A stretch of 44,418 nucleotides of DNA from a phage: sequence record PX502252.1. One strand, written 5' to 3'. Position numbers and translations under genes: made by a program. Position 1 is the stretch's first letter, and each line of letters opens with the position of its first letter. The notes under the pieces were generated by a model. It saw only the letters and a list, made by a program, of their open reading frames with translations, was not told the DNA's origin and did no database searches. Positions 3,898-39,311 of this stretch are shown piece after piece.

Positions 3898-6408
3898 ATG
3901 AAAACTATTGATTGGAAGAAGGAAGCAGAAGGGCGAATCCTAGTGATGGATGCGGAAGCTAAAGGTCTGCTTGATGCTATCCGCTATGGTCATCGTGAAG
4001 ATGTACACATCATTTGCTGCATGGACTTGCTCACCACTGAGGAGTTCCTCTTCTTCGACCCATATGAGATGCGTGACCCTGAAGCAAGGGAACACCTGAA
4101 AGAGTGGGAAGGACATCAAGATGGAACCTTAGTTGACGGTGTTAACTTCCTGAAGCACTGTGAAGCTATTGTGTCGCAGAACTTCCTAGGATATGACGGT
4201 CTTCTCTTTGAGAAAGCATTCCCTGATATCTGGAAAGGCTTTAATTATACCGAGAAGCGCGGCAAGGGCAGACTCCGTGCCGACCTGTGCCCTATCCGTG
4301 TTGTCGACACGCTGGTGATGAGTCGCCTGTTAAACCCCGATAGACGCCTTCCTCCGCAAGCATATGCCAAAGGTATGGGTAACGTCGCCCCTCACTCAAT
4401 TGAGGCGCACGGCATCCGTATAGGTCGCTATAAACCGGAGAACGAGGACTGGTCTAAACTAACTGACCACATGGTTCACCGTGTACGTGAGGACGTGGCG
4501 ATTGGTCGTGACTTGTTCCTCTGGCTCTTTAACGGGGAATGGATGGAGCACAAACGCCGTGGCGTGAACAAACGTACTGGCCTAGGGATTGAGACAGCCT
4601 TCCACATGGAGTCCATTGTGGCGCTGGAGATGAGCCGTCAGGCAGAGCGTGGATTCCGTCTGGATATTGACAAAGCACTAGCGCGATGCGAAGAACTGGA
4701 CGCTAAGATTGATGAGACAGTCGCAGCGTTCCGTCCGCACATGCCTATGCGTATCAAGTCTAAACCTTTTAAACCGGAAGAAAAGAATGAAGTATGCCAA
4801 CGCGCAAATGAGTATGGAGCTAGCAACAATATACCTACTGTCCTGGACCCCTCACACTTTCTTCATGCCGAGAGACGAGGAGATCGCAAGACAGTATGGA
4901 GTGTCACTACTAAGTCTGGTGATTGGTCGGCTAGTGTCAAGAAAGACTTTCCTCACCTTAGAGGAAACCGTAATGACACGCCAAGCATCAAGTGGATTGG
5001 CGCTTACTCGCCTGTTACTTTCGAAGAGATTCCCTTGGGTAACAGGGATGCAGTTAAGCAAGTGCTCTATGATTATGGATGGAAAGGTGTTGAATTTAAC
5101 GATACCGAGCAAGCGCATCTCGATGAGCACGGAGTGTTACCCAAACCTTGGAGTGGTAAGATAAATGAAAAGTCCCTTACTTTATGGCAAGAAAGAGCCG
5201 CACGTGAAGGTAAAACAGTCCCTGATTGGTGCTTGGGTATCGCTGCATGGTACATACTCGTATCCCGTCGTGGTCAGATACTCAACCGGGGTGACGTTGA
5301 AGCCTTCAACGAGAAGGGAACGTGGCCCTCGCAGGCTGGTGTACGAAAGTGTCGCGGCCTTGTACCTGTAGCATTCAACAAGGAGTTAGGAATCAATGCG
5401 CAGCAATACTACGAGAGGTACGGATGCTGGCCTACGTCAGACAAGGATGACGGAGAGTGGCGTGTGCCAGGCAATGCTGTTACTATTGGCACTAATACGT
5501 TCCGTATGCGTCATCGTAACATTGTTAACATTCCTTCCCGTGGGTTGTATCCTTTACGTGATTTATTCATAGCTAGCAAGGGCAAAATGATACTTGGGTG
5601 TGATGGAGCAGGTCTTGAGCTACGCATCTTAGCCCATTTTATGGGTGATCCTGAGTATATTGATATAGTCTTGAATGGTGATATTCACTCGCACAACCAA
5701 GCAAAGGCTGGATTGCCCTTACGTGACACTGCGAAAACATTTATCTACGCTTTTCTCTACGGATCTGGCATACCAAATCTTGCCGCTGTATGTGGCATGA
5801 CTGAAGCACAGATGAAAGAATGTGTTGCTCGCTTTGAAGTAGAGTTACCTCATTTAGCTAAACTTAAGGAAGGGGTGGAATCCGCTGCTTCAACATTTGG
5901 ATATATGCACGCTGTAGATGGACGCTGGGGACGTGTACGCGTTAGTAATGGTGAGATTAAGATTCACACTTGTCTTAACGTACTGCTACAGATGACTGGC
6001 TCCCTCACTATGAAGTACTCAAAAGTGAAGGCTCTCGCTACTATGCGAAAAGAAGGTGTTGCCCTTGATGAGAATGGAAACCCTGCTATGCTTGTAGATT
6101 ATCATGATGAATGGCAGATGGAAGTACCTGAAGATGAAGTCTTAGAGATTCGCTACTCTATTCCTTCTTCCGAATGGAAAGAGGAAGAGAAACGTCAATA
6201 TCGTGATAGCGAAGGGCGCATGTGGTCTGCACCCAAGATTGTGGAAGGCAATCCTAAAGATGACGAAGAGGTAACAGTACGTCGCAGGTATCATCGTGCT
6301 GGTGAAATCTTAGCTGAATCTATTACGTGGGCTGGAGAATATCTCAAGCTACGTATCCGAATGGATGGCGAATATATGCTTGGATATTCATGGGCTGAAA
6401 CACACTGA
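3898..6408 (+). CDS. DNA polymerase, family A (T7 gp5-like)
   Basis: Exo I motif ILVMDAEAKGL; motif A GCDGAGLELRILAHF; motif B RDTAKTFIYAFLYGSG; motif C YHDEWQ. Start placed at ATG 3898 (AGAGG 7 nt upstream); in-frame ATG 3871 lacks SD. Confidence 0.93.
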   Translation: MKTIDWKKEAEGRILVMDAEAKGLLDAIRYGHREDVHIICCMDLLTTEEFLFFDPYEMRDPEAREHLKEWEGHQDGTLVDGVNFLKHCEAIVSQNFLGYDGLLFEKAFPDIWKGFNYTEKRGKGRLRADLCPIRVVDTLVMSRLLNPDRRLPPQAYAKGMGNVAPHSIEAHGIRIGRYKPENEDWSKLTDHMVHRVREDVAIGRDLFLWLFNGEWMEHKRRGVNKRTGLGIETAFHMESIVALEMSRQAERGFRLDIDKALARCEELDAKIDETVAAFRPHMPMRIKSKPFKPEEKNEVCQRANEYGASNNIPTVLDPSHFLHAERRGDRKTVWSVTTKSGDWSASVKKDFPHLRGNRNDTPSIKWIGAYSPVTFEEIPLGNRDAVKQVLYDYGWKGVEFNDTEQAHLDEHGVLPKPWSGKINEKSLTLWQERAAREGKTVPDWCLGIAAWYILVSRRGQILNRGDVEAFNEKGTWPSQAGVRKCRGLVPVAFNKELGINAQQYYERYGCWPTSDKDDGEWRVPGNAVTIGTNTFRMRHRNIVNIPSRGLYPLRDLFIASKGKMILGCDGAGLELRILAHFMGDPEYIDIVLNGDIHSHNQAKAGLPLRDTAKTFIYAFLYGSGIPNLAAVCGMTEAQMKECVARFEVELPHLAKLKEGVESAASTFGYMHAVDGRWGRVRVSNGEIKIHTCLNVLLQMTGSLTMKYSKVKALATMRKEGVALDENGNPAMLVDYHDEWQMEVPEDEVLEIRYSIPSSEWKEEEKRQYRDSEGRMWSAPKIVEGNPKDDEEVTVRRRYHRAGEILAESITWAGEYLKLRIRMDGEYMLGYSWAETH

Positions 6409-6417
6409 GTTATACTA

Positions 6418-6445
6418 AAGGTCACTTACGAGTGGCCTTTATGAA
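6418..6445 (+). terminator. Hairpin downstream of DNA polymerase (AAGGTCACT-TACG-AGTGGCCTT) with weak T-tract
   Basis: 9-bp stem with tetraloop; 3' arm AGTGGCCT resembles RNAP-downstream terminator. Confidence 0.35.
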
Positions 6446-6476
6446 TAACTTACTCCCACCTATTTTGTATAACAGG

Positions 6477-6499
6477 ATTTACTGGACACTATAGAAGGA
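6477..6499 (+). promoter_or_regulatory. SP6-type phage promoter (ATTTACTGGACACTATAGAAGGA)
   Basis: Consensus match, intergenic. Confidence 0.75.
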
Positions 6500-6562
6500 A
6501 AGCCTAGGTAATCTAGTTTATAAGGTAGTATAGGTAATTAAGTAAATATAGGAGGTATAAAT

Positions 6563-6940
6563 ATGTCTATGGTAACTACTCTGGTATTCGTAGCTCAATA
6601 CTTTCGTGGCTTGGCTAACAAGTTCAAGCAGAAAGCCATCAAGCATATTGAGAAACGTATTGCTGCAATTGAAGATGAGCAGGTTCAAGTAGAGGAGCAG
6701 CGTAGCTCTCAGATGGTTGACTTGCACAATCGACTGTATAAAGACCGTGATGAAATGCGTCACCGTCATGCGAAGGAAGTCGAAGACATGCTTAACCGCC
6801 ATGCGGAAGAACAAGCTAAACTGGAAACAACCTTCCATGAGAATAAGCGTAGCATTGCTCTAGTACATCAAGCTGCATCTGACAGTCTGAAGAAAGAGAT
6901 TGTTATGCTGGAAATTGAACTGGACAACCTAACTAAGTAA
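6563..6940 (+). CDS. Hypothetical protein (125 aa), charged helical/coiled-coil-like
   Basis: ATG with GGAGG upstream; K/E/R-rich. Confidence 0.65.
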   Translation: MSMVTTLVFVAQYFRGLANKFKQKAIKHIEKRIAAIEDEQVQVEEQRSSQMVDLHNRLYKDRDEMRHRHAKEVEDMLNRHAEEQAKLETTFHENKRSIALVHQAASDSLKKEIVMLEIELDNLTK

Positions 6941-6946
6941 GGAGCT

Positions 6947-7246
6947 ATGATGGAAGAAGTAATTCAAGCTAAACATGTAGGTATCATCTTTCGTGATTTA
7001 GAGCAGCGTAAAGTTGCAGGTCACACTCGTCTGGCTAAAGAAGAAGACACAGCAATCACTACTGTTGAACAAGCAGATGCCTATCGTGGGCCAGAGTTTA
7101 CTCAAGGTGAAACTTGTCACCAATTGAGCCTGTCGCTTTGTGATACTATTGCTAGTGTGAATGTTCAAGAAGTTGAAGACGGTGAGATTGTTAGTTACGT
7201 CTACCCTCTAGACACTATTGCACGCATTAAAGTAATTCATAAATAA
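6947..7246 (+). CDS. Hypothetical protein (99 aa)
   Basis: TAAGGAG upstream; start 6947 or 6950. Confidence 0.6.
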   Translation: MMEEVIQAKHVGIIFRDLEQRKVAGHTRLAKEEDTAITTVEQADAYRGPEFTQGETCHQLSLSLCDTIASVNVQEVEDGEIVSYVYPLDTIARIKVIHK

Positions 7247-7267
7247 TTACTGGACACTATAGAACAA
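7245..7267 (+). promoter_or_regulatory. SP6-type phage promoter variant (AATTACTGGACACTATAGAACAA) overlapping stop codon of upstream gene
   Basis: Core ACTGGACACTATAGAA conserved; downstream AAGAG replaced by ACAA. Confidence 0.6.
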
Positions 7268-7455
7268 TAGGACGTGGGTTTGTCAGAGACAGTAAATCCA
7301 AGGTGCTCAGTGAGCGTAAAGCCTAAGCACGTCCTATGATTGTAAAGTGTTGAACCTTATTGTGCATCTTGCACAACCCGATATAGTATCGGGCTTTCTA
7401 GTGAGTACATGCTTGTGCTCAGTACAAAGCTAACTGACAATAGGAGACTAAATAA

Positions 7456-8262
7456 ATGGCACGTTCTGAATTTAACTATGGTGCTGATGTAACTAAGACA
7501 GAGGGTAAGGTATTTAAGAACCCTGAAGTAGGTGATCATGAAGCAGTAATCTCTGGCATCATTCATGTTGGTTCCTTCCAAGACATTTTTAAGAAAGGCA
7601 ATACCACTGAAGTCAAGAAGCCAGCAAACTTTGTTCTTGTTAAGATTGTCCTGATGGGCGACGATGATAAGAACGAAGATGACTCTCGCATGGAACAATG
7701 GATGGCTGTGCCTCTGAAGTCTGGTGATAAGGCAACACTAACTAAGTTCCTGAATGCAGTTGACCCTAAAGAGTTGCTGGGTGGCTTCGATGATTTTATC
7801 GGTGAATGTCTGACTGCAACTATGGTTGGCTCTGGCGACAAGAATGATGATGGTACTTTCAAGTATGTTAACTGGAAAGGCTTTGGTGGTATGCCGGATA
7901 AGCTGAAGAAACTTGTCATTGCTCAGGTTGAAGAAGAGGGTCTGTCTATGACAGGTCATATTACCTTCGACAAGCTGACCAAAGAAATCCTTGATGATAT
8001 TCCTGCTAACTTGGTGCGTCAATACTTCCTGAACGAGACGCCTCGTGGCAAGAACCTGTCTGTTGCTGGCTCTCACGTAGAAGCAATCATCAAAGCTGCT
8101 CGTGAAGAAGACCCAGAGTGGAAGAAAGCTAAGAAGAAAGATGAAGAGGATGCCACTCCAGCTAATCGTAGATCTCTGGATACAGACGAGTCTGTTCCAC
8201 AGGAAGTACCTGAAGCGGAGGACAACCCTGCACCTGAAATGGATGAAGACGCGGAATACTAA
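7456..8262 (+). CDS. Hypothetical protein (268 aa) with acidic C-terminal tail ending in Tyr; candidate ssDNA-binding protein
   Basis: TAGGAGA upstream; C-terminus ...EAEDNPAPEMDEDAEY; function inferred only from tail and position among replication genes. Confidence 0.7.
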   Translation: MARSEFNYGADVTKTEGKVFKNPEVGDHEAVISGIIHVGSFQDIFKKGNTTEVKKPANFVLVKIVLMGDDDKNEDDSRMEQWMAVPLKSGDKATLTKFLNAVDPKELLGGFDDFIGECLTATMVGSGDKNDDGTFKYVNWKGFGGMPDKLKKLVIAQVEEEGLSMTGHITFDKLTKEILDDIPANLVRQYFLNETPRGKNLSVAGSHVEAIIKAAREEDPEWKKAKKKDEEDATPANRRSLDTDESVPQEVPEAEDNPAPEMDEDAEY

Positions 8263-8271
8263 GGAGGGCGG

Positions 8272-8490
8272 ATGAAAGTACAAATTGTAACTCTGCATTG
8301 CAAGAAAGGCATCACCACGCTTGGCGGTGGCACTTTCCACTCCTTCTCCGAAGGAGATACATACTCTGACCTGCACTACATCTGGCGCGATGGGCAGCAC
8401 GTGGTGAACTATAGTGACCCGGCTACGGGGAAACGCCACGGCGTATCGCTTCCGGCGCATGACATTGCTCAGGTGAACACAGTTTTATAA
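8272..8490 (+). CDS. Hypothetical protein (72 aa)
   Basis: Strong SD AAGGAGGG 4 nt upstream of ATG. Confidence 0.6.
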   Translation: MKVQIVTLHCKKGITTLGGGTFHSFSEGDTYSDLHYIWRDGQHVVNYSDPATGKRHGVSLPAHDIAQVNTVL

Positions 8491-8491
8491 A

Positions 8492-8507
8492 GTCTCACGT
8501 GTGAGAC
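8492..8507. promoter_or_regulatory. Palindrome variant GTCTCACGTGTGAGAC (site 5), 15 bp upstream of phage promoter
   Basis: Same arms GTCTCAC/GTGAGAC with centre GT. Confidence 0.65.
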
Positions 8508-8522
8508 AAATCGGTGTCCGGT

Positions 8523-8545
8523 ATTTACTGGACACTATAGAAGAG
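8523..8545 (+). promoter_or_regulatory. SP6-type phage promoter (ATTTACTGGACACTATAGAAGAG)
   Basis: Full consensus match. Confidence 0.8.
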
Positions 8546-8595
8546 AAGAATTTTAATCGGCGATAATGCCATAACCAACAAAAGGAGAATTTAAT

Positions 8596-8970
8596 ATGTT
8601 CAAGATTGAAACTATCGTAAACCGTGTTGTCAAAGGTGCTGCTCTGGTATCCGTTGAGTCTTTCATTATCGTCGATGAAGCTGATCAACTGGTAGCTGGT
8701 ACTAAGGCTTACGATACCCGTGAAGAAGCTCAGGCTAAGATTGACAGCATGGGTAACTTCGCTGCTGGTCTGGAGTTCGCTCGTGCTTGCTTCCCTGAGC
8801 AGGCTGACAAAGCTCAGATTGGTAAGGCTAATATCGTAGCTGAATATCTGGATTGGGTTGCTGCTGGTAAACCAGTGAAAGAAGTTAAGGCTGCTGAAGA
8901 AGCTGAAGCTCCAGCAGCAGAAGAAGTAGCTGCACCGGAAACTCCGGTAAGCGAAGAGGAAGAATTTTGA
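8596..8970 (+). CDS. Small acidic protein (124 aa) ending EEEEF; own promoter and terminator, likely abundant
   Basis: AAAGGAGA SD; flanked by promoter 8523 and terminator 9030; codon usage biased to common codons; C-terminal acidic tail with terminal Phe. Confidence 0.8.
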   Translation: MFKIETIVNRVVKGAALVSVESFIIVDEADQLVAGTKAYDTREEAQAKIDSMGNFAAGLEFARACFPEQADKAQIGKANIVAEYLDWVAAGKPVKEVKAAEEAEAPAAEEVAAPETPVSEEEEF

Positions 8971-9360: not shown

Positions 9361-10301
9361 TAGATGCTGATATGCTACCTTATATTGTAGGGTACACAAT
9401 CAGTGACATGACTTATGTACGAGCCACAACTCGTGTTAAGTCAGGACAAGTCCCATCAATCAAAGATACACCTGAGTGTAAGCAAGCATGTGACCGTGTG
9501 AACTCCTTGCTTAACTCTTGGGTGTATGCAGCAGAGTGCGATGCAGCTAAGTTATTCATGACGAAATCAGAAGCTAACTTCCGTGTTCGCCTAGCATTCA
9601 CCAAGCCTTACAAAGGTCAACGTAAGACTGAGAAGCCTCCATTCTTCTATGAATTGCGAGAGCATCTCTTAGAGGTTCATGGTGCAATCTTGGCAGATGG
9701 AGAAGAAGCGGATGACCTCATGAGCATCACACAATGGGATAGCCACCGCCGCTTCCAGCAAGATACAGGTAACGAGTTCCCTATCGGTAGTCCAGAGCAT
9801 AAAGCATTCTCTGACACTTGCATCGTTTCCTTGGATAAGGATTTGATGATTGTTCCCGGTTGGCATCTACAGCCGGGAGGTGAGAAGAAATGGGTAGAGC
9901 CTATGGGTTGGCTTGAGCTACGCCGCAAGGCTAATGGTCAAGTGAAAGACCTTAAAGGTGCTGGCCTCATGTTCCATTATGCACAGATGATTATCGGTGA
10001 TGATATTGATAATTACGCTGGCATACCCGGACGTGGTGCTAAATACGCCTATGATCTTCTCAAAGATTGTAAGACAGAGAAAGAGTTGTACATGGCAGTG
10101 CTTGGTGCATATAAGGCTAAGTTCGGACATGGACAAGTTAAGATTAAGAATTACCGAGGTGGTTATCGTATCGGCAAGGCTTTTGATCTCATGCTTGAAT
10201 GTGGTCGCCTAGCTCACATGGCAAGATTCAAAGGTGACATCTGGCGAGCCGATAAGAATGAAATCTTATGGGGAGAAGGTGATGGATGGCTAGTAAACTA
10301 A
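9273..10301 (+). CDS. 5'-3' exonuclease, FEN family (T7 gp6-like)
   Basis: IALIDADMLPYIV (N-terminal Asp cluster), GEEADDLM, SLDKDLM motifs; ATG 9273 with AAGGAG 8 nt upstream (ORF track shows GTG 9264). Confidence 0.85.
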   Translation: MRPNFDFGATVSEDNNLILWPTEGNRIALIDADMLPYIVGYTISDMTYVRATTRVKSGQVPSIKDTPECKQACDRVNSLLNSWVYAAECDAAKLFMTKSEANFRVRLAFTKPYKGQRKTEKPPFFYELREHLLEVHGAILADGEEADDLMSITQWDSHRRFQQDTGNEFPIGSPEHKAFSDTCIVSLDKDLMIVPGWHLQPGGEKKWVEPMGWLELRRKANGQVKDLKGAGLMFHYAQMIIGDDIDNYAGIPGRGAKYAYDLLKDCKTEKELYMAVLGAYKAKFGHGQVKIKNYRGGYRIGKAFDLMLECGRLAHMARFKGDIWRADKNEILWGEGDGWLVN

Positions 10302-10696
10302 AATCTTCAGAGGTGGCAGCTTATAAGAAAGAGCTTATGGAGAAGCAAGGTTGGAAGTGCCCTCTGTGCGGAGGCAGCCTCAAGGCAGTAAGTCCTATCA
10401 ACCGTGTACTTGACCATGATCATGAGACAGGTTTCTGTCGTGCTGTTGTGTGTCGAGGTTGCAACGGTGCAGAAGGAAAGATTAAAGGTGTTATATCTGG
10501 CTACGGAAAGGCAGGTAATAACCGCTACTTCCAACTACAATGGTTAGAACGCCTGTATAACTACTGGAAGCTACATAGTACACCTCAGACAGATAAGTTA
10601 TATCATAATCATAAAACGGAGGCAGAGAAACGAGAGGCTAAGAATCGTAAAGCTCGCCTTGCTTATGCAAGAAAGAAGGAGGTTAAGAGTAGCTAA
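10286..10696 (+). CDS. Endonuclease VII-like Holliday-junction resolvase
   Basis: CPLCG...DHDHETGFCRAVVCRGCN matches T4 endo VII zinc/His motif pattern. Confidence 0.8.
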   Translation: MASKLKSSEVAAYKKELMEKQGWKCPLCGGSLKAVSPINRVLDHDHETGFCRAVVCRGCNGAEGKIKGVISGYGKAGNNRYFQLQWLERLYNYWKLHSTPQTDKLYHNHKTEAEKREAKNRKARLAYARKKEVKSS

Positions 10697-10960
10697 ACTT
10701 CGTAGCCTTTATAAAGACTCCGAGGTGCTTGATGCAATCGAGCAAGCTACCGACGAGAAAGGTAATGTTAACTATAATGAGATGGCGAAGATTCTATCTA
10801 GCCACCCTGTGGGTAAGAAGATCACCGTCAACTTGCTCGCTATTGGCATGGTCAATTCAAGAAGACCAAGAAGAATGGTGATTACTACCAGACTCTTCTG
10901 CAAGAGGATAAGCGTATCAAAGAAGAGCGTAAGCTCAGGACTCCTGACCGCTACGAGGAT

Positions 10961-11695
10961 TTGGCTATTGTACCATTGCCTGACTCGCCTCATCGAAGTG
11001 TACTGGTAATCCCTGATACTCATGCACCTTATGAGCACCCCGATACCTTAGAGTTCCTTGCAGCAGTGGCAGCACGTTATCGACCAGACACAGTGGTACA
11101 TCTTGGAGATGAGGCAGATAAACATGCCCTGTCATTCCATGATTCGGATCCAAATTTGGACAGTGCTGGCATGGAGTTAGAGAAAGCTCGTGTCTTCATG
11201 CACAAGTTGCACAAGATGTTTCCTGTGATGCGCCTGTGTCACTCTAATCACGGCTCTATGCACTTCCGTAAGGCAAGCGCCAAGGGTATTCCAGTGCAAT
11301 ATCTTCGTACCTACCGAGAAGTCTTCTTCCCGCAGGGAGGTGGCGACCAGTGGGATTGGCAGCATACGCATGTACTTGAGTTGCCGAATGGCGAACAGGT
11401 GGCATTCAAGCATCAACCTGCTGGCTCTGTCCTAGCAGATGCAGCGCATGAGCGTATGAATCTTGTGTGTGGTCACTTGCATGGTAAGATGTCTGTGGAG
11501 TACGCACGTAATACACATGAACAGTATTGGGCTGTGCAGGGTGGCTGCTTAATTGATGAGTCATCCCGTGCATTTGCCTATGGGCGTGAGTCTAAATACA
11601 AGCCAGCATTAGGTTGTGTGGTTATTCTGGAAGGTGTGCCTCATATTGTCCCGATGCAAACCAATAGCGACAACCGTTGGATTGGCAAGATTTAG
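10961..11695 (+). CDS. Calcineurin-like metallophosphoesterase; start codon uncertain (TTG at 10961, no in-frame ATG upstream)
   Basis: VLVIPDTHAPYEHPD (DxH), HLGDEAD (GDxxD), NHG, GHLH motifs; frame open from 10817 without ATG/GTG. Confidence 0.7.
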   Translation: MAIVPLPDSPHRSVLVIPDTHAPYEHPDTLEFLAAVAARYRPDTVVHLGDEADKHALSFHDSDPNLDSAGMELEKARVFMHKLHKMFPVMRLCHSNHGSMHFRKASAKGIPVQYLRTYREVFFPQGGGDQWDWQHTHVLELPNGEQVAFKHQPAGSVLADAAHERMNLVCGHLHGKMSVEYARNTHEQYWAVQGGCLIDESSRAFAYGRESKYKPALGCVVILEGVPHIVPMQTNSDNRWIGKI

Positions 11696-11712
11696 TTGAC
11701 ACTATAGAACAA
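11690..11712 (+). promoter_or_regulatory. SP6-type phage promoter variant (ATTTAGTTGACACTATAGAACAA)
   Basis: Core TGACACTATAGAA conserved; upstream ATTTAG as in SP6 itself. Confidence 0.6.
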
Positions 11713-11795
11713 AGGGCTAGGTAAGACTTTATCGGCTGGCGTATCCAAATGATATTGCACTAGCCCTTGATTGTATAGTGAATGGAGGATTCAAT

Positions 11796-25048: not shown

Positions 25049-28000
25049 ATGGTTGATAGTATTAACCAAAACTGGGTGGCGGTGACTCAACGCAAGTTAC
25101 CGCCTACCTTCTCTCAAGTTGCTGAAGCCGAACGTAGGGTAGAAGACCAGAGAGCTAAGGATAAAGTATTTCAAACAGCAATAGAAAGTGAGTGGGCTTT
25201 GTACGGTGGACAACGTGCCTATGAACGCCACACTACAGAGTTTACTGAACAAGAAGGTTATGAAGTACCTGAATCAACTAAGGATGAACTATCCAAGTTG
25301 TATGGGTATGAAATAGCGCAAGACATAGTTAAGAATGTGAAGTCTCCAGAAGAGTTGCAATTCCGTATGTCTAATGCTGCTGCTGATAAAGACAGAGCAG
25401 ACATCTTAGCACGTAATGGTTTCACAGGTTTTAGCGCACAGATTGCTGCTGGCATTCTTGACCCTGTAGGTTGGGCGGCTTCTCTAGTAGCTGCACCTGT
25501 AGCTGGTGCTGTCAAAGTAGGTCGTCTAGGTAGGATTATCAAGACGGCTGCCTTATCTGGTGCTGAAAATGCTGCATTAGAAGCTGTGCTTGCACAAGGT
25601 GATTACCAACGAGGTGTCGATGATGTACTGGCTGCTGCCGGGTTTGGTATGATTATGGGCGGTACTATTGGCGCTGCAACTAGGGAACGCATAGCCAGTG
25701 CTGGTTCTCGTACAGCGGCAGAGAGAGCAGAGGTTGTATTTGATGACTTGGACACCGTAGTAAAAGGTGCTGATGAGTTTGACTCGTCTGCTGCTCGTGC
25801 TGTACGTGAGGCCATGGAGTATGACGCGTATATGGCAGCACGTAATTATGAACCACTTCGTGCAAGAGAGGTGGATGCAGATATGGCAATTCTATCTCAC
25901 ACAGACAACTTGAAAGCCAATGCGTCGGTAAGGATGAGTGCTAGTGAGAAAGGACTACTGAAGAAACAGATACGCCAACTGGAAGCAGAAGCAGCCACAC
26001 TTAAGGGGAAGAAGATAGATGCTGTAGCAGAGGCTGCCGCCGCTAAGGGTGCACCTAAATCTGCTGCGGACAGATTGGATTTAGATGTTCAGAAGAAAGC
26101 ACTGGCACGTAGATTCGATGAACCACTTGCTGATTTACAAGCGCGTCTAGATGAGTTGAATGCCAAGTTATCTCGTGCGAACAATGTAGGTAAGGCTAAG
26201 GAGGAGCTTAAGAGATTCTCATCGCTGTCCCGTGAAGATCAAATAAAGGAACTAGGTTTAGACGCACCAATGCGTAAGGTGGAGATGACCCGTGCTGTAC
26301 GCGATGCAGTAGCTGCAATCCGTGCCGAACGTAAGAAGACACCTACCGAAATACATGCTGGACAAGTTGCAGAAGAGGCAATCAAACAAAAGGCAGATGA
26401 CTCTATTGGTGCTAAACGTGTTGAAGGTTCAGAGATTGCAGGCGAGCAGTTTGACTTATCTAAAAACATGGAAGAGCTTATGGACGACTTGGCACGAGAA
26501 GCATATCAGTCAGATGTGCGGCCTATTAATCTTAAGGGTCTAGGTTCGGTGTCTTCTGTGATTCTTAACTCAGAGAACCCTGTGTTCCGAGGTCTAGGCC
26601 TTCGTCTGCTTGAAAATGCTCAGGGTGGTGCATATCAAGGTAAGACAGCTTCTATCTTATCAGATGTGTATGGCAACCTTATTCGTCATGCAGAACGTAA
26701 CAGGTACAATGATGGTTTCTCTCAATTCATCAAAGATAACAACCTGCGTGCAGTAGATTATCTTAATCCTGCAACGACACGGGATTTCAATAATCAGATT
26801 TATACAGCAATTGTTCGTGGCATACCAGAAGATACACCTCGTGGTGTTAAACTGGCAGCCGAAGGTATTGCTGATAAACTCAAGAAAGCACTTGAGATTC
26901 GTAAGCAAGCAGGAGAGCATGGATTCGAGGATGTACAATCTGCTAAGGATTACATCCCTGTTATCTATGACGGTATCAAAATCACAGAGGCAGTTAACAA
27001 GCTAGGTAGCAGTGAAGCTGTCATACACTTGCTGTCTAAAGGTTATCAGACAGGCAAGTACAAGCTTGGCAAGAAAGCTGCTGATGCACTAGCCAAAGTC
27101 CAGTATATTCGCGCATCTGACTCTACCCTCTCTAGTCGTGTTGCATTCGATAGAGTGGTATCCCAGCAGCAGCAGGTTCAGTTGATTGAGGATCTGAAGA
27201 AAGCAGGAGTACCAGATCGTATCATTGATAATTTCATTGAAGGTACGGAATTAGCAGAAATGGCTGAATCGGTATCCAATCGAGCTAAAGCCAGTATGGG
27301 TATTAATACGCAAGCCGAATACGGTGGTTTGAAGGTGCAGGATTTGCTTAATACCAACGTAGGTGAGCTAACTGAGAACTACGGCAAAGAGGCAGCGGGT
27401 GGTGCTGCATTAGCTGCTATGGGTTTCCCTACTCGCCAATCTGTGCTGAACGCAATAGATGCCGCAGAACGCGCAGGCCGCAATATGGCGGGGTCAAATG
27501 CTAAGGCAATCAAACAGCTTAGGTCTGAGGCAGAAATGCTAAGAGATGCCGTTAAGCTTATTTACGGCAACACTATAGACGCCGACCCTAACTCTGGAAT
27601 TGTCAGGGGCACTAGACGTGTCCGCGAGATTACAGGCTTGTTACGATTAGGCCAAATGGGCTTCGCTCAGATACCCGAACTGGCACGTGCAATCTCTAAG
27701 ATGGGGCTAGGGACTGTGCTGAAGTCTGTACCTGCCACTAAGTTCTTACGTTCGAGAGCGGCTCGTAAAGGTGGCACGGCTCAGGGTGAGCTGCTTGAAC
27801 CTGAACTGCGGGAAATGGAGGAACTCTTAGGCTATATCGGGGAAGATAACTGGCTTACAGGGTGGAACGTCCGTCATGATGAGTTCGGAGAAACTGCTGA
27901 TAACCTAGGTAAGCTGTCCGCTATTATTGATAATGGCTTGGCTATGGGTAGTAGAATCAACACAATTCTCTCTGGTTTTAAAGCAGTACAAGGTGGTTCA

Positions 28001-28852
28001 GAGAAAATTGTAGCTCGCTCTATCAATAAGAGACTAAAGCAACATTTGATGGGTGAGCGACAGCTACCCAAAGCAGACCTTGAAGAAGTTGGCCTAAGTG
28101 AAGATGTCATGAAGAGACTTAAACGTCACTTTGATGATAACCCAATGTACGCTGATTACAACGGTGAAAAAGTTCGTATGATGAACTTTGATGCTATGGA
28201 GCCAGATCTGAGAGAAACAGTAGGTGTTGCTGTGCGAAGAATGTCAGGCCGTCTTATTCAACGTAACTTCATTGGTGATGAAGGTATCTGGATGAACAAA
28301 TGGTGGGGTAAAGCATTAACTCAGTTTAAGTCATTCTCTATCGTCTCTATTGAGAAACAGTTAATCCATGATTTACGAGGTGATAAGATTCAGGCTGCAC
28401 AGATACTTGCATGGTCTACTTTACTAGGTTATGCATCTTATTCACTACAGATGCAGCTGCAAGCGATTGGTAGGGAAGATAGAGACAAGTTCTTGAGGGA
28501 TAAGTTTGACACACAGAACATCGCTATGGGTGTCTTTAATAAACTCCCACAAGTTGCAGGCTTCGGTCTTGCTGGTGATGCTTTGGCAACCTTTGGCCTA
28601 ATGCCAGACTCCATGATGCAAGCACCGGGACGTATGGGCTTCCGTCAGCAAGGATTTGGTGATTTGGTAGCAGGTGCTGGTGTAATCAGTGATACAGTTA
28701 ATTTGTCACAAGCACTGGTTAAGTATGCCAGTGGGGATGATGATGTCTCTACTAGGCAGTTGGTGGACAAGGTGCGTCGCCTTGTTCCTTTGGCAAATAC
28801 TATTGGTGTAGGTCAGATGACTAAAGCCAGTGTAGACTTATTGGAGGATTGA
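25049..28852 (+). CDS. Internal virion (core/ejection) protein, T7 gp16-like
   Basis: 1267 aa; size and position. Confidence 0.85.
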   Translation: MVDSINQNWVAVTQRKLPPTFSQVAEAERRVEDQRAKDKVFQTAIESEWALYGGQRAYERHTTEFTEQEGYEVPESTKDELSKLYGYEIAQDIVKNVKSPEELQFRMSNAAADKDRADILARNGFTGFSAQIAAGILDPVGWAASLVAAPVAGAVKVGRLGRIIKTAALSGAENAALEAVLAQGDYQRGVDDVLAAAGFGMIMGGTIGAATRERIASAGSRTAAERAEVVFDDLDTVVKGADEFDSSAARAVREAMEYDAYMAARNYEPLRAREVDADMAILSHTDNLKANASVRMSASEKGLLKKQIRQLEAEAATLKGKKIDAVAEAAAAKGAPKSAADRLDLDVQKKALARRFDEPLADLQARLDELNAKLSRANNVGKAKEELKRFSSLSREDQIKELGLDAPMRKVEMTRAVRDAVAAIRAERKKTPTEIHAGQVAEEAIKQKADDSIGAKRVEGSEIAGEQFDLSKNMEELMDDLAREAYQSDVRPINLKGLGSVSSVILNSENPVFRGLGLRLLENAQGGAYQGKTASILSDVYGNLIRHAERNRYNDGFSQFIKDNNLRAVDYLNPATTRDFNNQIYTAIVRGIPEDTPRGVKLAAEGIADKLKKALEIRKQAGEHGFEDVQSAKDYIPVIYDGIKITEAVNKLGSSEAVIHLLSKGYQTGKYKLGKKAADALAKVQYIRASDSTLSSRVAFDRVVSQQQQVQLIEDLKKAGVPDRIIDNFIEGTELAEMAESVSNRAKASMGINTQAEYGGLKVQDLLNTNVGELTENYGKEAAGGAALAAMGFPTRQSVLNAIDAAERAGRNMAGSNAKAIKQLRSEAEMLRDAVKLIYGNTIDADPNSGIVRGTRRVREITGLLRLGQMGFAQIPELARAISKMGLGTVLKSVPATKFLRSRAARKGGTAQGELLEPELREMEELLGYIGEDNWLTGWNVRHDEFGETADNLGKLSAIIDNGLAMGSRINTILSGFKAVQGGSEKIVARSINKRLKQHLMGERQLPKADLEEVGLSEDVMKRLKRHFDDNPMYADYNGEKVRMMNFDAMEPDLRETVGVAVRRMSGRLIQRNFIGDEGIWMNKWWGKALTQFKSFSIVSIEKQLIHDLRGDKIQAAQILAWSTLLGYASYSLQMQLQAIGREDRDKFLRDKFDTQNIAMGVFNKLPQVAGFGLAGDALATFGLMPDSMMQAPGRMGFRQQGFGDLVAGAGVISDTVNLSQALVKYASGDDDVSTRQLVDKVRRLVPLANTIGVGQMTKASVDLLED

Positions 28853-32349: not shown

Positions 32350-32631
32350 ATGGCTAATGATTATAGTAATCAGCCTTTAACTGGTCGTTATGACCGTAAA
32401 CAGATTACACCAACTAGTGAAGCATTAATGCTCCCTGTTGTTACAGAGGAGTCTATTAAGAAGAAAGCCAATGTTATCAATGATGCAACCAAATCTGGTA
32501 AACAGAAAGCAGCAATGGTATGTCGTCCTGTAGGTGGCACTCTTGAGATTGCCATTGCTACTGGTAGCAAAGAGGATGCAGACTGGTTGTCTGTTAAAAT
32601 GGATGGCGTTGGCCTTATTACACCAGCTTAA
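32350..32631 (+). CDS. Paralog-family small protein 1 (93 aa)
   Basis: AAGGAG SD; shares IN...SGKQKAAMV...IAIATGS...W core with next two ORFs. Confidence 0.7.
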   Translation: MANDYSNQPLTGRYDRKQITPTSEALMLPVVTEESIKKKANVINDATKSGKQKAAMVCRPVGGTLEIAIATGSKEDADWLSVKMDGVGLITPA

Positions 32632-32648
32632 TAAAAGGAGAAGATAAT

Positions 32649-32936
32649 ATGTCTAAGTATGGCGATGCAGGTACTACTACTGGTCAGGCTTTTCGTGTAA
32701 AAGCAGTACAAACTATTGCAACTGCAATCCCTATGCCTATCGTGGCAGAAGCTGACCTTAAAAAGAAAGATCATCCAATTAATATTGAACACCTATCTGG
32801 TAAGCAGAAAGGTGCTATGGTGGTTGTAGATAAGGGAGATAATAGCCTTTATATTGCTATTGCACGTGGTTCTGCACCAACTGACCAGTGGGATGTAACT
32901 ACTATGGAAGCTGTACCTGTAACACCAGGAGCTTAA
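32649..32936 (+). CDS. Paralog-family small protein 2 (95 aa)
   Basis: AAGGAGAAG SD; INIEHLSGKQKGAMVVV...IAIARGSAPTDQW. Confidence 0.7.
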   Translation: MSKYGDAGTTTGQAFRVKAVQTIATAIPMPIVAEADLKKKDHPINIEHLSGKQKGAMVVVDKGDNSLYIAIARGSAPTDQWDVTTMEAVPVTPGA

Positions 32937-32937
32937 T

Positions 32938-33627
32938 ATGCTGGGAGTAACAGGACAACGCAATAAGAATGTAGCCACCAAAGTAGTGGCTGATTTAGCT
33001 ACTGCTGCTACTGTCGAGGAATTACGAGATCAACATAGCTCTATTAACCGTGCTGACCTTTCTGGTAAACAAGAAGGTTCCGCTGTTATTGTTAAGAAAG
33101 AAGATGGGAATTATTCTATCTTTGTAGCAACAGGAAGCAAGCCGACTGATGTGTGGAAAGAGTTGTCTCCAACAATACCAGAGCAAGAGATGCCTGCTGA
33201 ATATATTGATATGATTGATGTTCAAATTCATCAAGATTCTGCAAGCAACTTACGCATAGACTCTTCTCGCACTAGTTTAATACAAACACCAATGTGGGAT
33301 ACTGAAGGTGAGTTGTTATTCCGTAATACACTAAGTGCAACATGTTCTTGTACTATTCTTGTTGATGGTGCGTCTGGTGTTCGTCAGGATTTTACTTTTA
33401 AGATTAATGGACTTTTAGAGCAGGAAGAGCAGTATTATGATATTGACACACTTATGTGCTCTATTCACTCTGCAACAGCAACTAATGGCCTTACCTTGTG
33501 TATGCCAGATGCTAAAAGTGCAAAGACTAATAAAATGGTAGTTAAGATCGACACTATGCAGTCATTAGCTATGAGCTTTGATCTTAACTTCCTTGTAGAA
33601 TGGACGTCACCAACGAGGTTACTATAA
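32938..33627 (+). CDS. Paralog-family protein 3 (229 aa), conserved N-terminal domain plus C-terminal extension
   Basis: INRADLSGKQEGSAVIV...IFVATGSKPTDVW then about 140 aa unique region. Confidence 0.7.
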   Translation: MLGVTGQRNKNVATKVVADLATAATVEELRDQHSSINRADLSGKQEGSAVIVKKEDGNYSIFVATGSKPTDVWKELSPTIPEQEMPAEYIDMIDVQIHQDSASNLRIDSSRTSLIQTPMWDTEGELLFRNTLSATCSCTILVDGASGVRQDFTFKINGLLEQEEQYYDIDTLMCSIHSATATNGLTLCMPDAKSAKTNKMVVKIDTMQSLAMSFDLNFLVEWTSPTRLL

Positions 33628-34568: not shown

Positions 34569-34646
34569 ATAAATAGTGCCGTTCATTTGAGCGGCCTATT
34601 ACTAGCCAATCTTCATAGGGAGGGTTGGAAAGTAATAGGAGACAAT

Positions 34647-35714
34647 ATGGCTAAACTTACTAAAGTCTTCCAAGGCAGGGATGGTAAAGGTCAAGAGGAC
34701 TTTTATACCGGAGGTGGATGGAGCGGAGCCGATGGTGAGTCCGGTAGTATTTATAAAACTGTAGGCTCTCCACAAGAGAGTGCATCTAGGTGGAGATTTT
34801 CATTAAAAGAAAATGAACTAGTAGAAGAGCCTACCATCTGGTTAAATAAACGAACCAAAGTGTCTAGAAGTGATGGCATTAAAAGGTGGGATGCTGGCAA
34901 TTTATATTGCGGCCTAGATAAGATAGAAGGAGATGCATATGCTGCATCTTTAACTGGTGCAGCAAGACACCTAGGTGGGGAAGGGGATGTGATAGGTGTG
35001 CACGGAAGAGGTTGTGCCTATCATGGAAAAGCAAAAGTATGGGGTGGGTGGTTTTACGCTGCATCCAGAGTAGATAGCGAAGTTGTTGCAGGAGAAGCAC
35101 CTATTGATATGATAGGTGTTGAAATAAACTTAAACCATAAAAGAGAGGACATCTCTTGGACACCAGCAGAGGGTAAAGGCTTATACCGAGGCCTTGTAGT
35201 CACTACGGCAGATGGTGGAAAAAGATGCCATATAGGTATAGATGTTGGAGCACAAACCAGTAATAAATCAGAACCTTGGTATGTAGGGCTACGCATAAGA
35301 AAGGACAGCATAGTTCCTTTCAATGATGAAAGAGAAGGTAATGCGGCATCTGCAATATTAATAGAAGGCTCTACTCTACAATCCAAGGCGTATGGTGGTT
35401 TATCATTTAAGAATGGAACCCTAGCATATGGTATAGATTTTACAGGTATAGCTTTGATTGACAACCAAGCTGCATTGGTAATGAAAGATGACCATAGGAT
35501 CCGTTGGGGTTCAAGGGTGTCATCTAGATACATCTCAGGCAACAGTGTAACTGGTCAAGTAAATTTCAATAACTATGCAATTGCAGTAAATGGCAATAAA
35601 GTTATTGGAGAGCAACAACAAGCCATAAGTAATGCATCACAAGGTACAGAGGTTGATACTATAAATAATATCTTAGAAGCCCTAAGATCTCACGGACTAA
35701 TTAAGAGAGGTTAA
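34647..35714 (+). CDS. Putative tail fibre / receptor-binding protein 1 (355 aa), function unassigned
   Basis: TAGGAGA SD before ATG 34647; Gly-rich; located in the tailspike module; no confident domain call. Confidence 0.55.
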   Translation: MAKLTKVFQGRDGKGQEDFYTGGGWSGADGESGSIYKTVGSPQESASRWRFSLKENELVEEPTIWLNKRTKVSRSDGIKRWDAGNLYCGLDKIEGDAYAASLTGAARHLGGEGDVIGVHGRGCAYHGKAKVWGGWFYAASRVDSEVVAGEAPIDMIGVEINLNHKREDISWTPAEGKGLYRGLVVTTADGGKRCHIGIDVGAQTSNKSEPWYVGLRIRKDSIVPFNDEREGNAASAILIEGSTLQSKAYGGLSFKNGTLAYGIDFTGIALIDNQAALVMKDDHRIRWGSRVSSRYISGNSVTGQVNFNNYAIAVNGNKVIGEQQQAISNASQGTEVDTINNILEALRSHGLIKRG

Positions 35715-35718
35715 TATT

Positions 35719-35862
35719 ATGAAGGAAGAAGTTATTAAAAATATCTTAAAGTTTATGAGTCGAGTTGAATTACATGGGTATGAAGTTCCTGCTTTTGTTA
35801 TTTGTATGGACTCGCTTGAAGCTATGCTTCTATCAAGCAATGAAGACAAAGCGGATGTTTAA
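35719..35862 (+). CDS. Small protein (47 aa) between the two receptor-binding genes
   Basis: ATG 4 nt after upstream stop, GAGAGG upstream; followed by hairpin terminator; below ORF-track cutoff. Confidence 0.35.
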   Translation: MKEEVIKNILKFMSRVELHGYEVPAFVICMDSLEAMLLSSNEDKADV

Positions 35863-35868
35863 ACAGTG

Positions 35869-35890
35869 GCAGTGCGTAAGCACTGCTTTT
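35869..35890 (+). terminator. Hairpin GCAGTGC-GTAA-GCACTGC followed by TTTT
   Basis: Perfect 7-bp stem, GNRA-like tetraloop, T-tract. Confidence 0.55.
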
Positions 35891-35946
35891 CACGCAACTT
35901 TTCTTAAAGGTTATCATGGTGGTAGCCTTTCAGAAAAGGAGGGTAC

Positions 35947-37893: not shown

Positions 37894-38154
37894 ATGTTGG
37901 TTGTATCTAGTAAGAAGAAGCAGAGTGAAATGGATAAGATAGTTCAGACTGGCCTTGCTGCTAAGTCTGGTCAACCTCTTAATACTGGAACTGGTTCAAT
38001 TGACAAGATTGTTGAAACAGGCAAACAGGCCATGTCTGTTGGGTTGGACAAGAGTGAAAGGAAGCAGGCTGAGTTCAATAAGATCATTGAGTTCGGTAAG
38101 GAAGCTAAGAGGAAGTTCTTAAGGCCGTCTGCGGTAGAACCAGTAAGACACTAG
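37894..38154 (+). CDS. Small protein (86 aa) with three internal [DN]KI[VI][QE]xG repeats
   Basis: AAGGAGG SD; repeats DKIVQTG, DKIVETG, NKIIEFG; last gene before repeat-dense terminal region. Confidence 0.5.
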   Translation: MLVVSSKKKQSEMDKIVQTGLAAKSGQPLNTGTGSIDKIVETGKQAMSVGLDKSERKQAEFNKIIEFGKEAKRKFLRPSAVEPVRH

Positions 38155-38159
38155 GAAAC

Positions 38160-38900
38160 ATCTTAGTGTTGTACAAGGAATAACCAAAGTCAAAATTTTG
38201 ATGTAGGCGTGTGTGAGGTGTCTCGCCCTCGCCCTCGCCGGGATGTCCCCATAGGGTGGCCTGAGGGAATCCGTCTCCGACGGGCAGGGCTGATGCACTC
38301 CTTGTACTAGCTTAGTAGTACACAAGGGATGACCGTACTAGTTAGCTGGTACAGCCTAGTCTTTGCTCATGTACTAGCAAGGTGGAACGCCGGAGAACGC
38401 CTAGGACGGCCTAGGGATGGCTTAGTGGTGGACAAGGTGATTGCCTTAGTGAAGCCTCTTAGTGCATTCCTGAGGCTATTCAGGGCCATTCCTGAGCGTT
38501 TGACAGGGTGGGCGTGGGTGGGCTATCTGTTCGTTTCGTCGCTGGCGCTCCTCACTTCGTTTCGCCTAGCGCTCCACTCACAAGCCTGACGTGTACCTTA
38601 GTCACTACCTTAGGTTGTTCCTTGATGGATAGCTTAGGTTAACCTTAGTGGATTGCCTTAGTTAAAGCCTTAGTGCTTCACTTAGTATCAGCTTAGTAGT
38701 GTACCTTAGTCAGTCTTAGTGTTAGACCTTAGTGACTACATAGCTACGCTATAAGATGCAAATAGGTCGCGGTCGGTAGACCGCTAATAAGAAGTAATAG
38801 TAATAAGATGCAGTAGGAGGAACACCAGAAACCTAGTCAGCCTAGCCTATCCTAGCTCTGTATCTATTGCGTTTCCTTAGTCTCACATGTTAGACAACCT
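38160..38900. repeat. Non-coding, repeat-dense genome-terminus region (GC-rich block then array of about 11 CTTAGT/CCTTAGT units); probable site of terminal repeat/concatemer junction
   Basis: CTCGCC x3, TACTAG x3, ATTCCTGAG x2, TTCGTTTCG x2, then CTTAGT repeats every 10-14 bp (38590-38750); no SD-led ORFs; analogous to T7 terminal-repeat heptamer arrays. Confidence 0.6.
38880..38895. promoter_or_regulatory. Palindrome variant GTCTCACATGTTAGAC (site 7, one mismatch)
   Basis: 15/16 match to the recurrent palindrome. Confidence 0.5.
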
Positions 38901-38962
38901 AGGTTTATCATAGTAGTTGTGACATGTATCACATAAATAATCTATCTTAGTGAAACTTAGTG

Positions 38963-38991
38963 TTGACACAGGCAATCAACAGGTATACATT
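38963..38991 (+). promoter_or_regulatory. Candidate host sigma70 early promoter (TTGACA - 17 bp - TACATT)
   Basis: Perfect -35 hexamer, 17-bp spacer, -10 with 3/6 match; positioned at start of early region. Confidence 0.4.
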
Positions 38992-39290: not shown

Positions 39291-39311
39291 TAGACACAAG
39301 AGGGATTAACT

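What the first reader, a model, noticed from the sequence alone, without database searches (positions are those of the whole stretch)
10659..11009. Frame anomaly upstream of the phosphoesterase: no ATG start, and an overlapping ORF whose 3' half looks non-coding
The phosphoesterase frame is open from 10817 but contains no ATG or GTG before the catalytic DxH motif; the only candidate start is TTG 10961 with an SD only 2 nt away. The region 10697-10817 is open only in the -1 frame, which reads as plausible protein (…DEKGNVNYNEMAKILSSHPVGKK) but then degenerates into Cys/Trp-rich sequence. This is consistent with a -1 frameshift (sequencing error, programmed event or pseudogenisation) joining an N-terminal segment to the phosphoesterase, or with an unusual start.
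Basis: seen in the sequence. Interest (0 to 1): 0.55.

Follow-up and report, generated by a model that had tools for sequence, protein, structure and literature searches.

The report
Broken phage phosphoesterase gene (one-base deletion)
The odd reading frames are one ordinary phage phosphoesterase gene, intact in every relative examined except one, that in this genome has lost one base and its start codon, so it is a recently broken gene or an assembly error, not a new mechanism.

Summary
The window is a K1-5/SP6-like coliphage genome (genus Vectrevirus). In the 5 GenBank and 27 IMG/VR relatives I examined base by base, down to 76% protein identity and including an SP6-length contig, the segment at window 10689-11695 is one uninterrupted 1008-nt gene. 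It encodes a 335-aa K1-5 gp22-type metallo-phosphoesterase (PHROG 221). Its TTG/GTG/ATG start follows a GGAGG Shine-Dalgarno and overlaps the endonuclease VII stop.

The window carries two changes found in no relative:
- One C is deleted from a CCC run (ATCACCCGT to ATCACCGT, 10825-10826, codon 46/47). This puts codons 47-335 in the -1 frame.
- The start codon is changed from GTG to GTA (10689-10691).

Putting one C back gives a 335-aa protein with no window-specific amino acid. No other gene in the 44 kb is frame-broken. There is no slippery heptamer and no homopolymer of 4 or more, and no relative shares the frame arrangement. Programmed frameshifting and a "separate small gene plus TTG start" are therefore rejected.

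Most likely this is a very recent real inactivation of a dispensable gene. An assembly error for the deletion cannot be excluded without reads. Klebsiella phage IME184 has an independent one-base deletion in the same gene. The finding is ordinary and of low interest.

The parts
10286..10696 (+). Endonuclease VII gene (K1-5 gp21 orthologue). Its last codon and stop overlap the phosphoesterase start. The last residue is Ser here and Gly in all 32 relatives.
10676..10682 (+). Shine-Dalgarno AAGGAGG of the native phosphoesterase start, 6 nt upstream of 10689; conserved in relatives
10689..10691 (+). Mutated start codon GTA. Relatives have TTG (19), GTG (9) or ATG (4) at this exact position. The A at 10691 is unique to the window.
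10689..10826 (+). Codons 1-46 of the phosphoesterase (first part of the N-terminal helical domain), in the native upstream frame
10825..10826 (+). Site of the one-base deletion. CC here is CCC in the nearest relatives (ATCACCCGT), and every relative aligned has one more base at this point. It is the only position in a 4-kb alignment where the window alone has a gap.
10826..11695 (+). Codons 47-335 plus stop of the phosphoesterase, now in the -1 frame. This covers the rest of the N-terminal domain, the linker and the whole metallophosphoesterase core. It is 99.7% identical in protein to K1-5 gp22.
10827..11009 (+). Out-of-frame tail of the 116-aa ORF (61 nonsense codons plus TAA 11007-11009). 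It is long only because the +1 frame of this gene is poor in stops.
10961..10963 (+). TTG (codon Leu92 of the native protein), the only conceivable internal start for a 244-aa catalytic-domain product. GAGG at 10955-10958 lies only 2 nt upstream. The sequence is invariant in relatives because it encodes E-D-L.
11009..11023 (+). IPDTH, the first metallophosphoesterase motif (D-x-H)
11696..11709 (+). SP6-type phage promoter core TTGACACTATAGAA immediately after the phosphoesterase stop; one of 10 such sites in the window

Best explanation
Window 10689-11695 is the orthologue of K1-5 gene 22. This is a 335-codon gene for a protein with an N-terminal helical domain of about 80 aa, a linker, and a calcineurin-like metallophosphoesterase core. 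In this genome it carries two derived, genome-specific lesions. One C is deleted from a CCC run at 10825-10826, which throws codons 47-335 into the -1 frame. The start codon has changed from GTG to GTA at 10689-10691.

Shown:
- The gene is one ORF in every relative examined.
- Both lesions are unique to the window.
- The rest of the gene is unaltered.
- No other gene is frame-broken.

Inferred:
- Ribosomes no longer start efficiently at 10689.
- Any that did would terminate at TAA 11007 after 46 native and 61 nonsense residues, so no full-length enzyme is made.
- The gene is therefore a very recent loss-of-function allele of a dispensable phage gene.
- The 116-aa ORF and the TTG-initiated 244-aa ORF are by-products of the deletion, not genes.
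For: - DNA alignment with K1-5, LL11, R4596 and Raoultella phage P3a shows exactly one gap and the GTG/TTG to GTA change.
- Every listed record of the 68 phage records matching 10670-10900 spans one base more than the query. The closest, KAW1A4500, is 99.1% identical, 2 differences in 232 nt.
- All 32 relatives examined have one 1008-nt ORF with no internal stop, an NTG start at the same position behind GGAGG, and a conserved (I/V)TRQLA(R/K)YW motif across the deletion point.
- Restoring one C yields 335 aa with no window-unique residue. The gene differs from its nearest relatives at 36-46 nt but only 1-2 aa. The window-unique states in the gene are the start-codon A, one other substitution at 11041 that changes no residue, and the deletion.
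- tblastn of all 52 K1-5 and 46 P3a proteins finds only this gene split between frames.
- A 2451-nt blastn alignment with KAW1A4500 has a single gap.
- A 4-kb alignment with 22 relatives has only 7 window-unique states between 9189 and 12630, and the only gap private to the window is at 10825.
- PHROG 221 spans the full 335 aa. 119 of the 120 best homologues are full-length.
- The G at the third start-codon position is also the first base of the invariant terminal Gly codon of endonuclease VII (32 of 32 relatives), so the change is unusual on two counts.
Against: - No reads are available, so the deletion could be an assembly or consensus error. The relative KAW1A4500 itself has annotated frameshifts in its RNA polymerase gene, and its helicase gene is split into several CDSs. 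That shows such errors occur in this group.
- The remaining 289 codons show no decay at all. That fits a very recent lesion equally well as an error.
- Neither lesion was found in any other record or contig, so there is no independent confirmation.
- That the gene is dispensable is inferred, not shown. No paper on its function was found.
Confidence: 0.72

Rival explanations
1. Sequencing or assembly artefact. The phage has an intact gene, and the missing C (and perhaps the G to A) are consensus errors.
For: - The deletion lies in a short homopolymer (CCC to CC).
- The rest of the gene is perfectly preserved, with no window-unique amino acid.
- Related deposited genomes contain evident frameshift errors in essential genes.
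- The lesions are seen nowhere else.
Against: - None of the other roughly 50 genes is frame-broken, so the assembly is not generally indel-prone.
- A 3-base run is a weak error hotspot.
- A second, independent disabling change, a substitution in the start codon, sits 135 nt away in the same gene. Window-unique changes in the surrounding 3.4 kb are otherwise only about 1 per 500 nt. Two random errors both falling on disabling positions of one gene is improbable.
Confidence: 0.22
2. The gene is broken, but the catalytic domain is still made. Translation starts at TTG 10961 and gives a 244-aa phosphoesterase that lacks the N-terminal domain. This is compatible with the best explanation and concerns residual function only.
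For: - ORF 10961-11695 contains the whole metallophosphoesterase core. In the AF2 model the core begins at residue 104, and TTG is codon 92.
- It matches Pfam Metallophos and PHROG 221.
- GAGG lies upstream.
Against: - The SD-to-start spacing is only 2 nt, and TTG is a weak start (optimal spacing of about 5-9 nt is from my own knowledge).
- The sequence is invariant in relatives because it encodes E-D-L, so it is no evidence for a start.
- 119 of the 120 best homologues keep the N-terminal domain. The one short entry is itself a frameshifted gene.
Confidence: 0.12
3. Programmed -1 ribosomal frameshift (or transcriptional slippage) that normally joins the two frames into the full-length enzyme.
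For: - The required shift is -1, and slipping at C10826 would recreate the native protein exactly.
- The local RNA folds somewhat better than shuffles (z = -2.8).
Against: - There is no X XXY YYZ heptamer in the zero frame between the TAA at 10814-10816 and the end of the ORF, and no homopolymer of 4 or more.
- The predicted stem encloses the site instead of lying downstream of it.
- All 32 relatives encode the protein in one frame.
- The start codon is also lost, so there would be little to frameshift.
Confidence: 0.01
4. Two real genes: a small upstream protein (116 aa) and a TTG-initiated phosphoesterase.
For: Both ORFs exist.
Against: - The 116-aa ORF matches PHROG 221 only over its first 50 or so residues, and the rest is out-of-frame sequence.
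- It has no credible start: GTA at the native site, and no SD before TTG 10659 or ATG 10665.
- Exact-sequence look-ups of both products, with several alternative starts, find nothing among 15 billion proteins.
- No relative has this arrangement except the independently frameshifted IME184.
Confidence: 0.01

Closest known systems
K1-5 gene 22 product (YP_654123.1, 'metallo-phosphoesterase'), with its K1E gp22 and other Vectrevirus orthologues and a 43,769-bp SP6-length IMG/VR contig; PHROG 221
   Same: - Same genomic position: exonuclease, endonuclease VII, phosphoesterase, promoter, nucleotide kinase.
- About 90% nt identity.
- Protein identity 87% over aa 1-46 and 99.7% over aa 47-335.
- Same SD and the same overlap with the endonuclease VII stop.
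   Different: The window's copy lacks one C at codon 46/47 and has GTA in place of the TTG/GTG start, so it is not a single translatable ORF.
Klebsiella phage IME184 (MZ398244.1), phosphoesterase annotated as two CDSs (QYC97015, QYC97016)
   Same: The same gene is split by a one-base deletion in its 5' third, also 1007 nt instead of 1008, and the catalytic-domain ORF is left intact.
   Different: This is an independent event: AA to A at gene position 244 (codon 82), in a different lineage. Its TTG start is retained.
Calcineurin-like metallophosphoesterases of known structure (LpxH, Vps29, GpdQ, SapH, YfcE); Pfam PF00149
   Same: - Same fold for residues 104-335 of the AF2 model (Foldseek probability 1.0, E 4e-6 to 6e-4).
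- D-x-H, GD-x-x-D, NH and GH-x-H motif residues are invariant in the family alignment.
   Different: - Only 10-16% identity and TM-scores of 0.3-0.6.
- No sequence-level PDB match.
- The extra N-terminal helical domain is absent from these proteins.
- The substrate is unknown.
T7 gene 10A/10B programmed -1 frameshift (from my own knowledge of the T7 supergroup)
   Same: A -1 frame relation between two overlapping ORFs in a T7-supergroup phage.
   Different: T7 gene 10 has a slippery sequence, and the arrangement is conserved among relatives. Here there is neither.

Membership tests
K1-5 gp22-type phage metallo-phosphoesterase (PHROG 221 / Pfam PF00149) | Sequence match to the family profile over the catalytic domain | tested here: met
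   The 244-aa ORF matches PHROG 221 at E 9.7e-84. It matches Pfam Metallophos at 21.9 bits against a cut-off of 21.5.
K1-5 gp22-type phage metallo-phosphoesterase (PHROG 221 / Pfam PF00149) | Metal-binding motifs D-x-H, GD-x-x-D, (G/S)NH, GH-x-H present | tested here: met
   IPDTH, HLGDEAD, SNHGS and GHLHG are present in the window translation. The corresponding columns are invariant in the 49-sequence alignment.
K1-5 gp22-type phage metallo-phosphoesterase (PHROG 221 / Pfam PF00149) | One uninterrupted ORF of about 335 codons that includes the N-terminal helical domain | tested here: not met
   The gene is split at 10825-10826 into two frames. All 32 relatives and 119 of the 120 best homologues are intact. 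By descent the window's copy is a disrupted member (pseudogene or error).
K1-5 gp22-type phage metallo-phosphoesterase (PHROG 221 / Pfam PF00149) | NTG start codon 6-8 nt after GGAGG, overlapping the endonuclease VII stop | tested here: not met
   The window has GTA at 10689-10691. Relatives have TTG (19), GTG (9) or ATG (4).
K1-5 gp22-type phage metallo-phosphoesterase (PHROG 221 / Pfam PF00149) | Phosphoesterase activity and substrate | not testable with these tools
   No paper on its function was found. The fold search gives only the generic metallophosphoesterase fold.
Programmed -1 ribosomal frameshift | Slippery heptamer X XXY YYZ in the zero frame at the shift site | tested here: not met
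   No canonical heptamer anywhere in 10689-11007.
Programmed -1 ribosomal frameshift | Stimulatory structure a few nt downstream of the slip site | tested here: inconclusive
   Region 10800-10920 folds at -34.9 kcal/mol (z = -2.8), but the main stem encloses the deletion site rather than following it.
Programmed -1 ribosomal frameshift | Two-frame arrangement conserved in related genomes | tested here: not met
   All 32 relatives examined are single-frame. All listed GenBank matches have the extra base.
Transcriptional slippage recoding | Long homopolymer tract at the frame junction | tested here: not met
   No run of 4 or more identical bases in 10689-11009.

The most novel reading that the evidence does not exclude
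The gene was knocked out under selection rather than by drift or error. Two observations leave this open. This genome carries two independent disabling hits (start-codon loss and frameshift), and Klebsiella phage IME184 carries an independent frameshift in the same 5' third of the gene. That could reflect recurrent selection to remove the N-terminal helical domain or the whole protein, for example because a host defence senses it. The intact catalytic-domain ORF might be kept and weakly expressed from TTG 10961.
Probability: 0.08. Interest if true: 0.4.

Novelty: already known. Interest (0 to 1): 0.1.

Why it matters
It matters mainly for annotation. The 116-aa ORF and the TTG-initiated 244-aa ORF should not be called as genes. 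The locus should be annotated as a disrupted (frameshifted, start-less) orthologue of K1-5 gene 22, or corrected if reads show an error.

If the lesion is real, the conserved gp22-type phosphoesterase is dispensable for propagation of a Vectrevirus on its isolation host. That is a small, useful piece of information about a widespread phage gene of unknown role. The phage would also be a natural knock-out for testing that role.

Tried and rejected
- **Programmed -1 frameshift or transcriptional slippage:** rejected. There is no slippery heptamer and no homopolymer of 4 or more. The predicted stem encloses the site rather than following it. Relatives are single-frame.
- **Separate small upstream gene:** rejected. 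Only the first 50 or so residues match the family, and there is no valid start.
- **Overlapping gene in the +1 frame.** The 324-nt open +1 frame is present in close relatives but shrinks or disappears in divergent ones. The +1 frame is stop-poor along the whole gene (4-17 stops against 21-46 in the +2 frame). It is a composition effect and explains the long nonsense tail.
- **Search for the same lesions elsewhere.** The exact 26-mer spanning the deletion and the 25-mer spanning GTA are absent from IMG/VR and JGI metagenome contigs. No GenBank phage record is identical over 10670-10900.
- **Exact look-up of the truncated products.** Six start variants were tried against the 15-billion-protein collection, and none was found.
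- **Function of the enzyme.**
  - There is no sequence-level PDB hit.
  - Foldseek gives only the generic metallophosphoesterase fold.
  - Three literature searches found nothing on the gene's role.
- **Local burst of low-quality sequence:** not seen. There are only 7 window-unique states in 3.4 kb around the gene.

Full report
**What the window is.** Megablast of 10250-11750 against GenBank phages finds 98 records. Nearly all are K1-5/K1E-like coliphages (genus Vectrevirus, Autographiviridae, the SP6 supergroup), at up to 96.8% identity. The local gene order is exonuclease, endonuclease VII, metallo-phosphoesterase, phage promoter, nucleotide kinase, as in K1-5 genes 20-23.

**Checking the observation.**
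- ORFs 10659-11009 (116 aa, TTG) and 10961-11695 (244 aa, TTG) exist and overlap in different frames.
- The phosphoesterase frame opens after TAA 10814-10816. Before the IPDTH motif (11009-11023) it has no ATG or GTG, only TTG 10961, TTG 10976 and weak CTG/ATC/ATT codons.
- GAGG at 10955-10958 lies 2 nt before TTG 10961.
- One detail is wrong. A second frame (ORF 10729-10881, open from 10693 to 10881) is also open across 10697-10817.

**What it is.** In K1-5, LL11, R4596, KAW1A4500 and Raoultella phage P3a the phosphoesterase is annotated as one 1008-nt CDS. It starts at the position equal to window 10689 and overlaps the endonuclease VII stop. A DNA alignment shows exactly two relevant differences in the window:
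- The start codon reads GTA. The nearest relatives have GTG, and K1-5 and LL11 have TTG.
- One C is missing from ATCACCCGT, leaving ATCACCGT (CC at 10825-10826).

I extended the comparison to 27 IMG/VR loci found with the K1-5 protein. Together with the five GenBank loci, all 32 relatives, down to 76% protein identity and including a 43,769-bp SP6-length contig, have these features:
- A 1008-nt ORF with no internal stop.
- A start of TTG (19), GTG (9) or ATG (4) at the same position behind GGAGG.
- The conserved peptide (I/V)TRQLA(R/K)YW across the point where the window loses a base.

Further database evidence points the same way:
- All listed GenBank matches to 10670-10900 span one base more than the query. 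The closest, KAW1A4500, differs at only 2 of 232 positions.
- tblastn places aa 1-46 of the orthologues at 10689-10826 and aa 47-335 at 10826-11692 in the -1 frame.
- PHROG 221 covers the entire 335 aa, so the N-terminal part belongs to the family's architecture.
- Of the 120 best hits in the 5.8-billion-cluster protein database, 119 are full-length (329-348 aa) down to 49% identity.

**How recent, and how specific.**
- Re-inserting one C gives a 335-aa protein with no amino acid that is unique to the window.
- The gene differs from its nearest relatives at 36-46 nucleotides but only 1-2 residues. Purifying selection therefore acted until very recently.
- The only window-unique states in the gene are A10691 (start codon), C11041 (which changes no residue) and the deletion.
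- A10691 also converts the terminal Gly of endonuclease VII to Ser. That Gly is invariant in 32 of 32 relatives.
- Genome-wide, none of the other K1-5 or P3a proteins is split across frames in the window. The few multi-HSP cases are paralogue hits or a large insertion in the same frame.
- A 2451-nt alignment with KAW1A4500 has one gap.
- In a 4-kb alignment with 22 relatives, only 7 window-unique states occur between 9189 and 12630. The only gap private to the window is at 10825. The lesions therefore do not lie in a locally noisy stretch.

**Mechanism (inference).**
- With GTA in place of the start, initiation at the native site should be negligible.
- Any ribosome that did start there would read 46 native codons and then 61 nonsense codons to TAA 11007.
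- The long nonsense tail exists because the +1 frame of this gene is poor in stops (4-17 stops against 21-46 in the +2 frame). This open frame shrinks or vanishes in divergent relatives, so it is not an overlapping gene.
- The 244-aa ORF would contain the entire catalytic core. An AlphaFold2 model of an 87%-identical homologue (pLDDT 84, pTM 0.81) has this layout:
  - Helical N-terminal domain, residues 1-80, with helices at 10-20, 29-37, 47-55 and 72-80.
  - Linker, residues 81-103.
  - Metallophosphoesterase core from residue 104.
- Foldseek matches the model to LpxH, Vps29, GpdQ, SapH and YfcE.
- TTG 10961 is codon 92. With only 2 nt between GAGG and TTG, and no evidence that relatives use it, expression of the 244-aa ORF is doubtful.

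**Real mutation or error?** This cannot be settled without reads.
- For a real lesion:
  - The assembly is otherwise free of frame breaks.
  - The run is only three bases long.
  - A second, independent disabling substitution sits in the same gene.
  - In a viable phage, disabling changes can persist only in dispensable genes, so two in one gene is what a real loss looks like.
- For an error:
  - The remaining 289 codons are completely undecayed.
  - Deposited relatives are known to contain frameshift errors. KAW1A4500 has annotated frameshifts in its RNA polymerase gene, and its helicase gene is split into several CDSs.
- My estimate is about 0.7 real and about 0.2 artefact.

**Rejected readings.**
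- A programmed -1 frameshift would need a slippery heptamer, and there is none. There is no homopolymer of 4 or more for transcriptional slippage.
- The modestly stable local fold (z = -2.8) encloses the site instead of following it.
- The arrangement is not conserved.

**A parallel case.** The single short hit (P0046, 229 aa) comes from Klebsiella phage IME184. Its record annotates two adjacent 'phosphoesterase' CDSs that together span 1007 nt. Alignment with five relatives shows an independent one-base deletion (AA to A) at gene position 244, codon 82. Breaks in the 5' third of this gene therefore recur in deposited genomes. Whether they are errors or real losses is unknown.

**Comparison with what is known, and verdict.** By descent the locus is a disrupted member of the K1-5 gp22 / PHROG 221 metallo-phosphoesterase family. 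It meets the sequence and motif criteria. It fails the 'single ORF' and 'NTG start' criteria. The enzyme's substrate and role are unknown. Nothing here is mechanistically new. It is an ordinary frameshifted, start-less gene or an assembly error. Interest is low. The practical outcome is an annotation correction and, if the lesion is real, evidence that the gene is dispensable.

Noticed in passing
L036 (Klebsiella phage IME184, MZ398244.1) 384-1390: An independent one-base deletion (AA to A at gene position 244, codon 82) splits the orthologous phosphoesterase into two annotated CDSs of 106 and 229 aa. This is a second broken copy of the same gene in another lineage.
   Followed up: yes
window 2424, 3203, 6483, 7251, 8529, 11696, 16837, 30096, 32201, 34552 (+ strand): There are ten SP6-type phage promoter cores (T/C-G/T-GACACTATAGAA), all on the + strand, against 0.55 expected by chance. 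The one at 11696 starts directly after the phosphoesterase stop codon and is the only one with TTGACAC instead of TGGACAC.
   Followed up: partly
window 1-44418 (junction near 38,000-39,400): The window is circularly permuted relative to K1-5. Gene 8 and the primase/helicase gene lie at 350-2467, the RNA polymerase gene at 41723-44347, and K1-5 genes 1-2 at 39419-39809. The physical genome ends must therefore lie around 38-39.4 kb. This is typical of an assembly opened at an arbitrary point.
   Followed up: no
window 10693-10881 and 10689-11009; relatives L001-L026: The +1 frame of the phosphoesterase gene is unusually poor in stops. In close relatives it is open for 324 nt from the start. This is not conserved in divergent relatives, so it looks like a codon-composition effect rather than an overlapping gene.
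   Followed up: yes
window 32350-33624: Three tandem paralogous small genes cross-match K1-5 gp41 and gp42 and a third P3a gene at 30-75% identity. RefSeq labels them 'acetyl-CoA acetyltransferase', which looks doubtful for proteins of about 90 aa.
   Followed up: no
window 25049-28849 and 34587-37600: The internal virion protein (K1-5 gp36 orthologue) is of the long P3a type, 1268 aa at 97% identity, with about 660 nt absent from K1-5. The tailspike region matches K1-5 and P3a spikes only over short N-terminal adaptor segments, so this phage probably has a different receptor or capsule specificity.
   Followed up: no
L005 (Escherichia phage vB_EcoP_KAW1A4500, MK373773.1) 3903-8927: The closest relative over the finding region has annotated frameshifts in its RNA polymerase gene, and its helicase gene is split into several CDSs. 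In essential genes these are presumably sequencing errors, a caution about sequence quality in this phage group.
   Followed up: no
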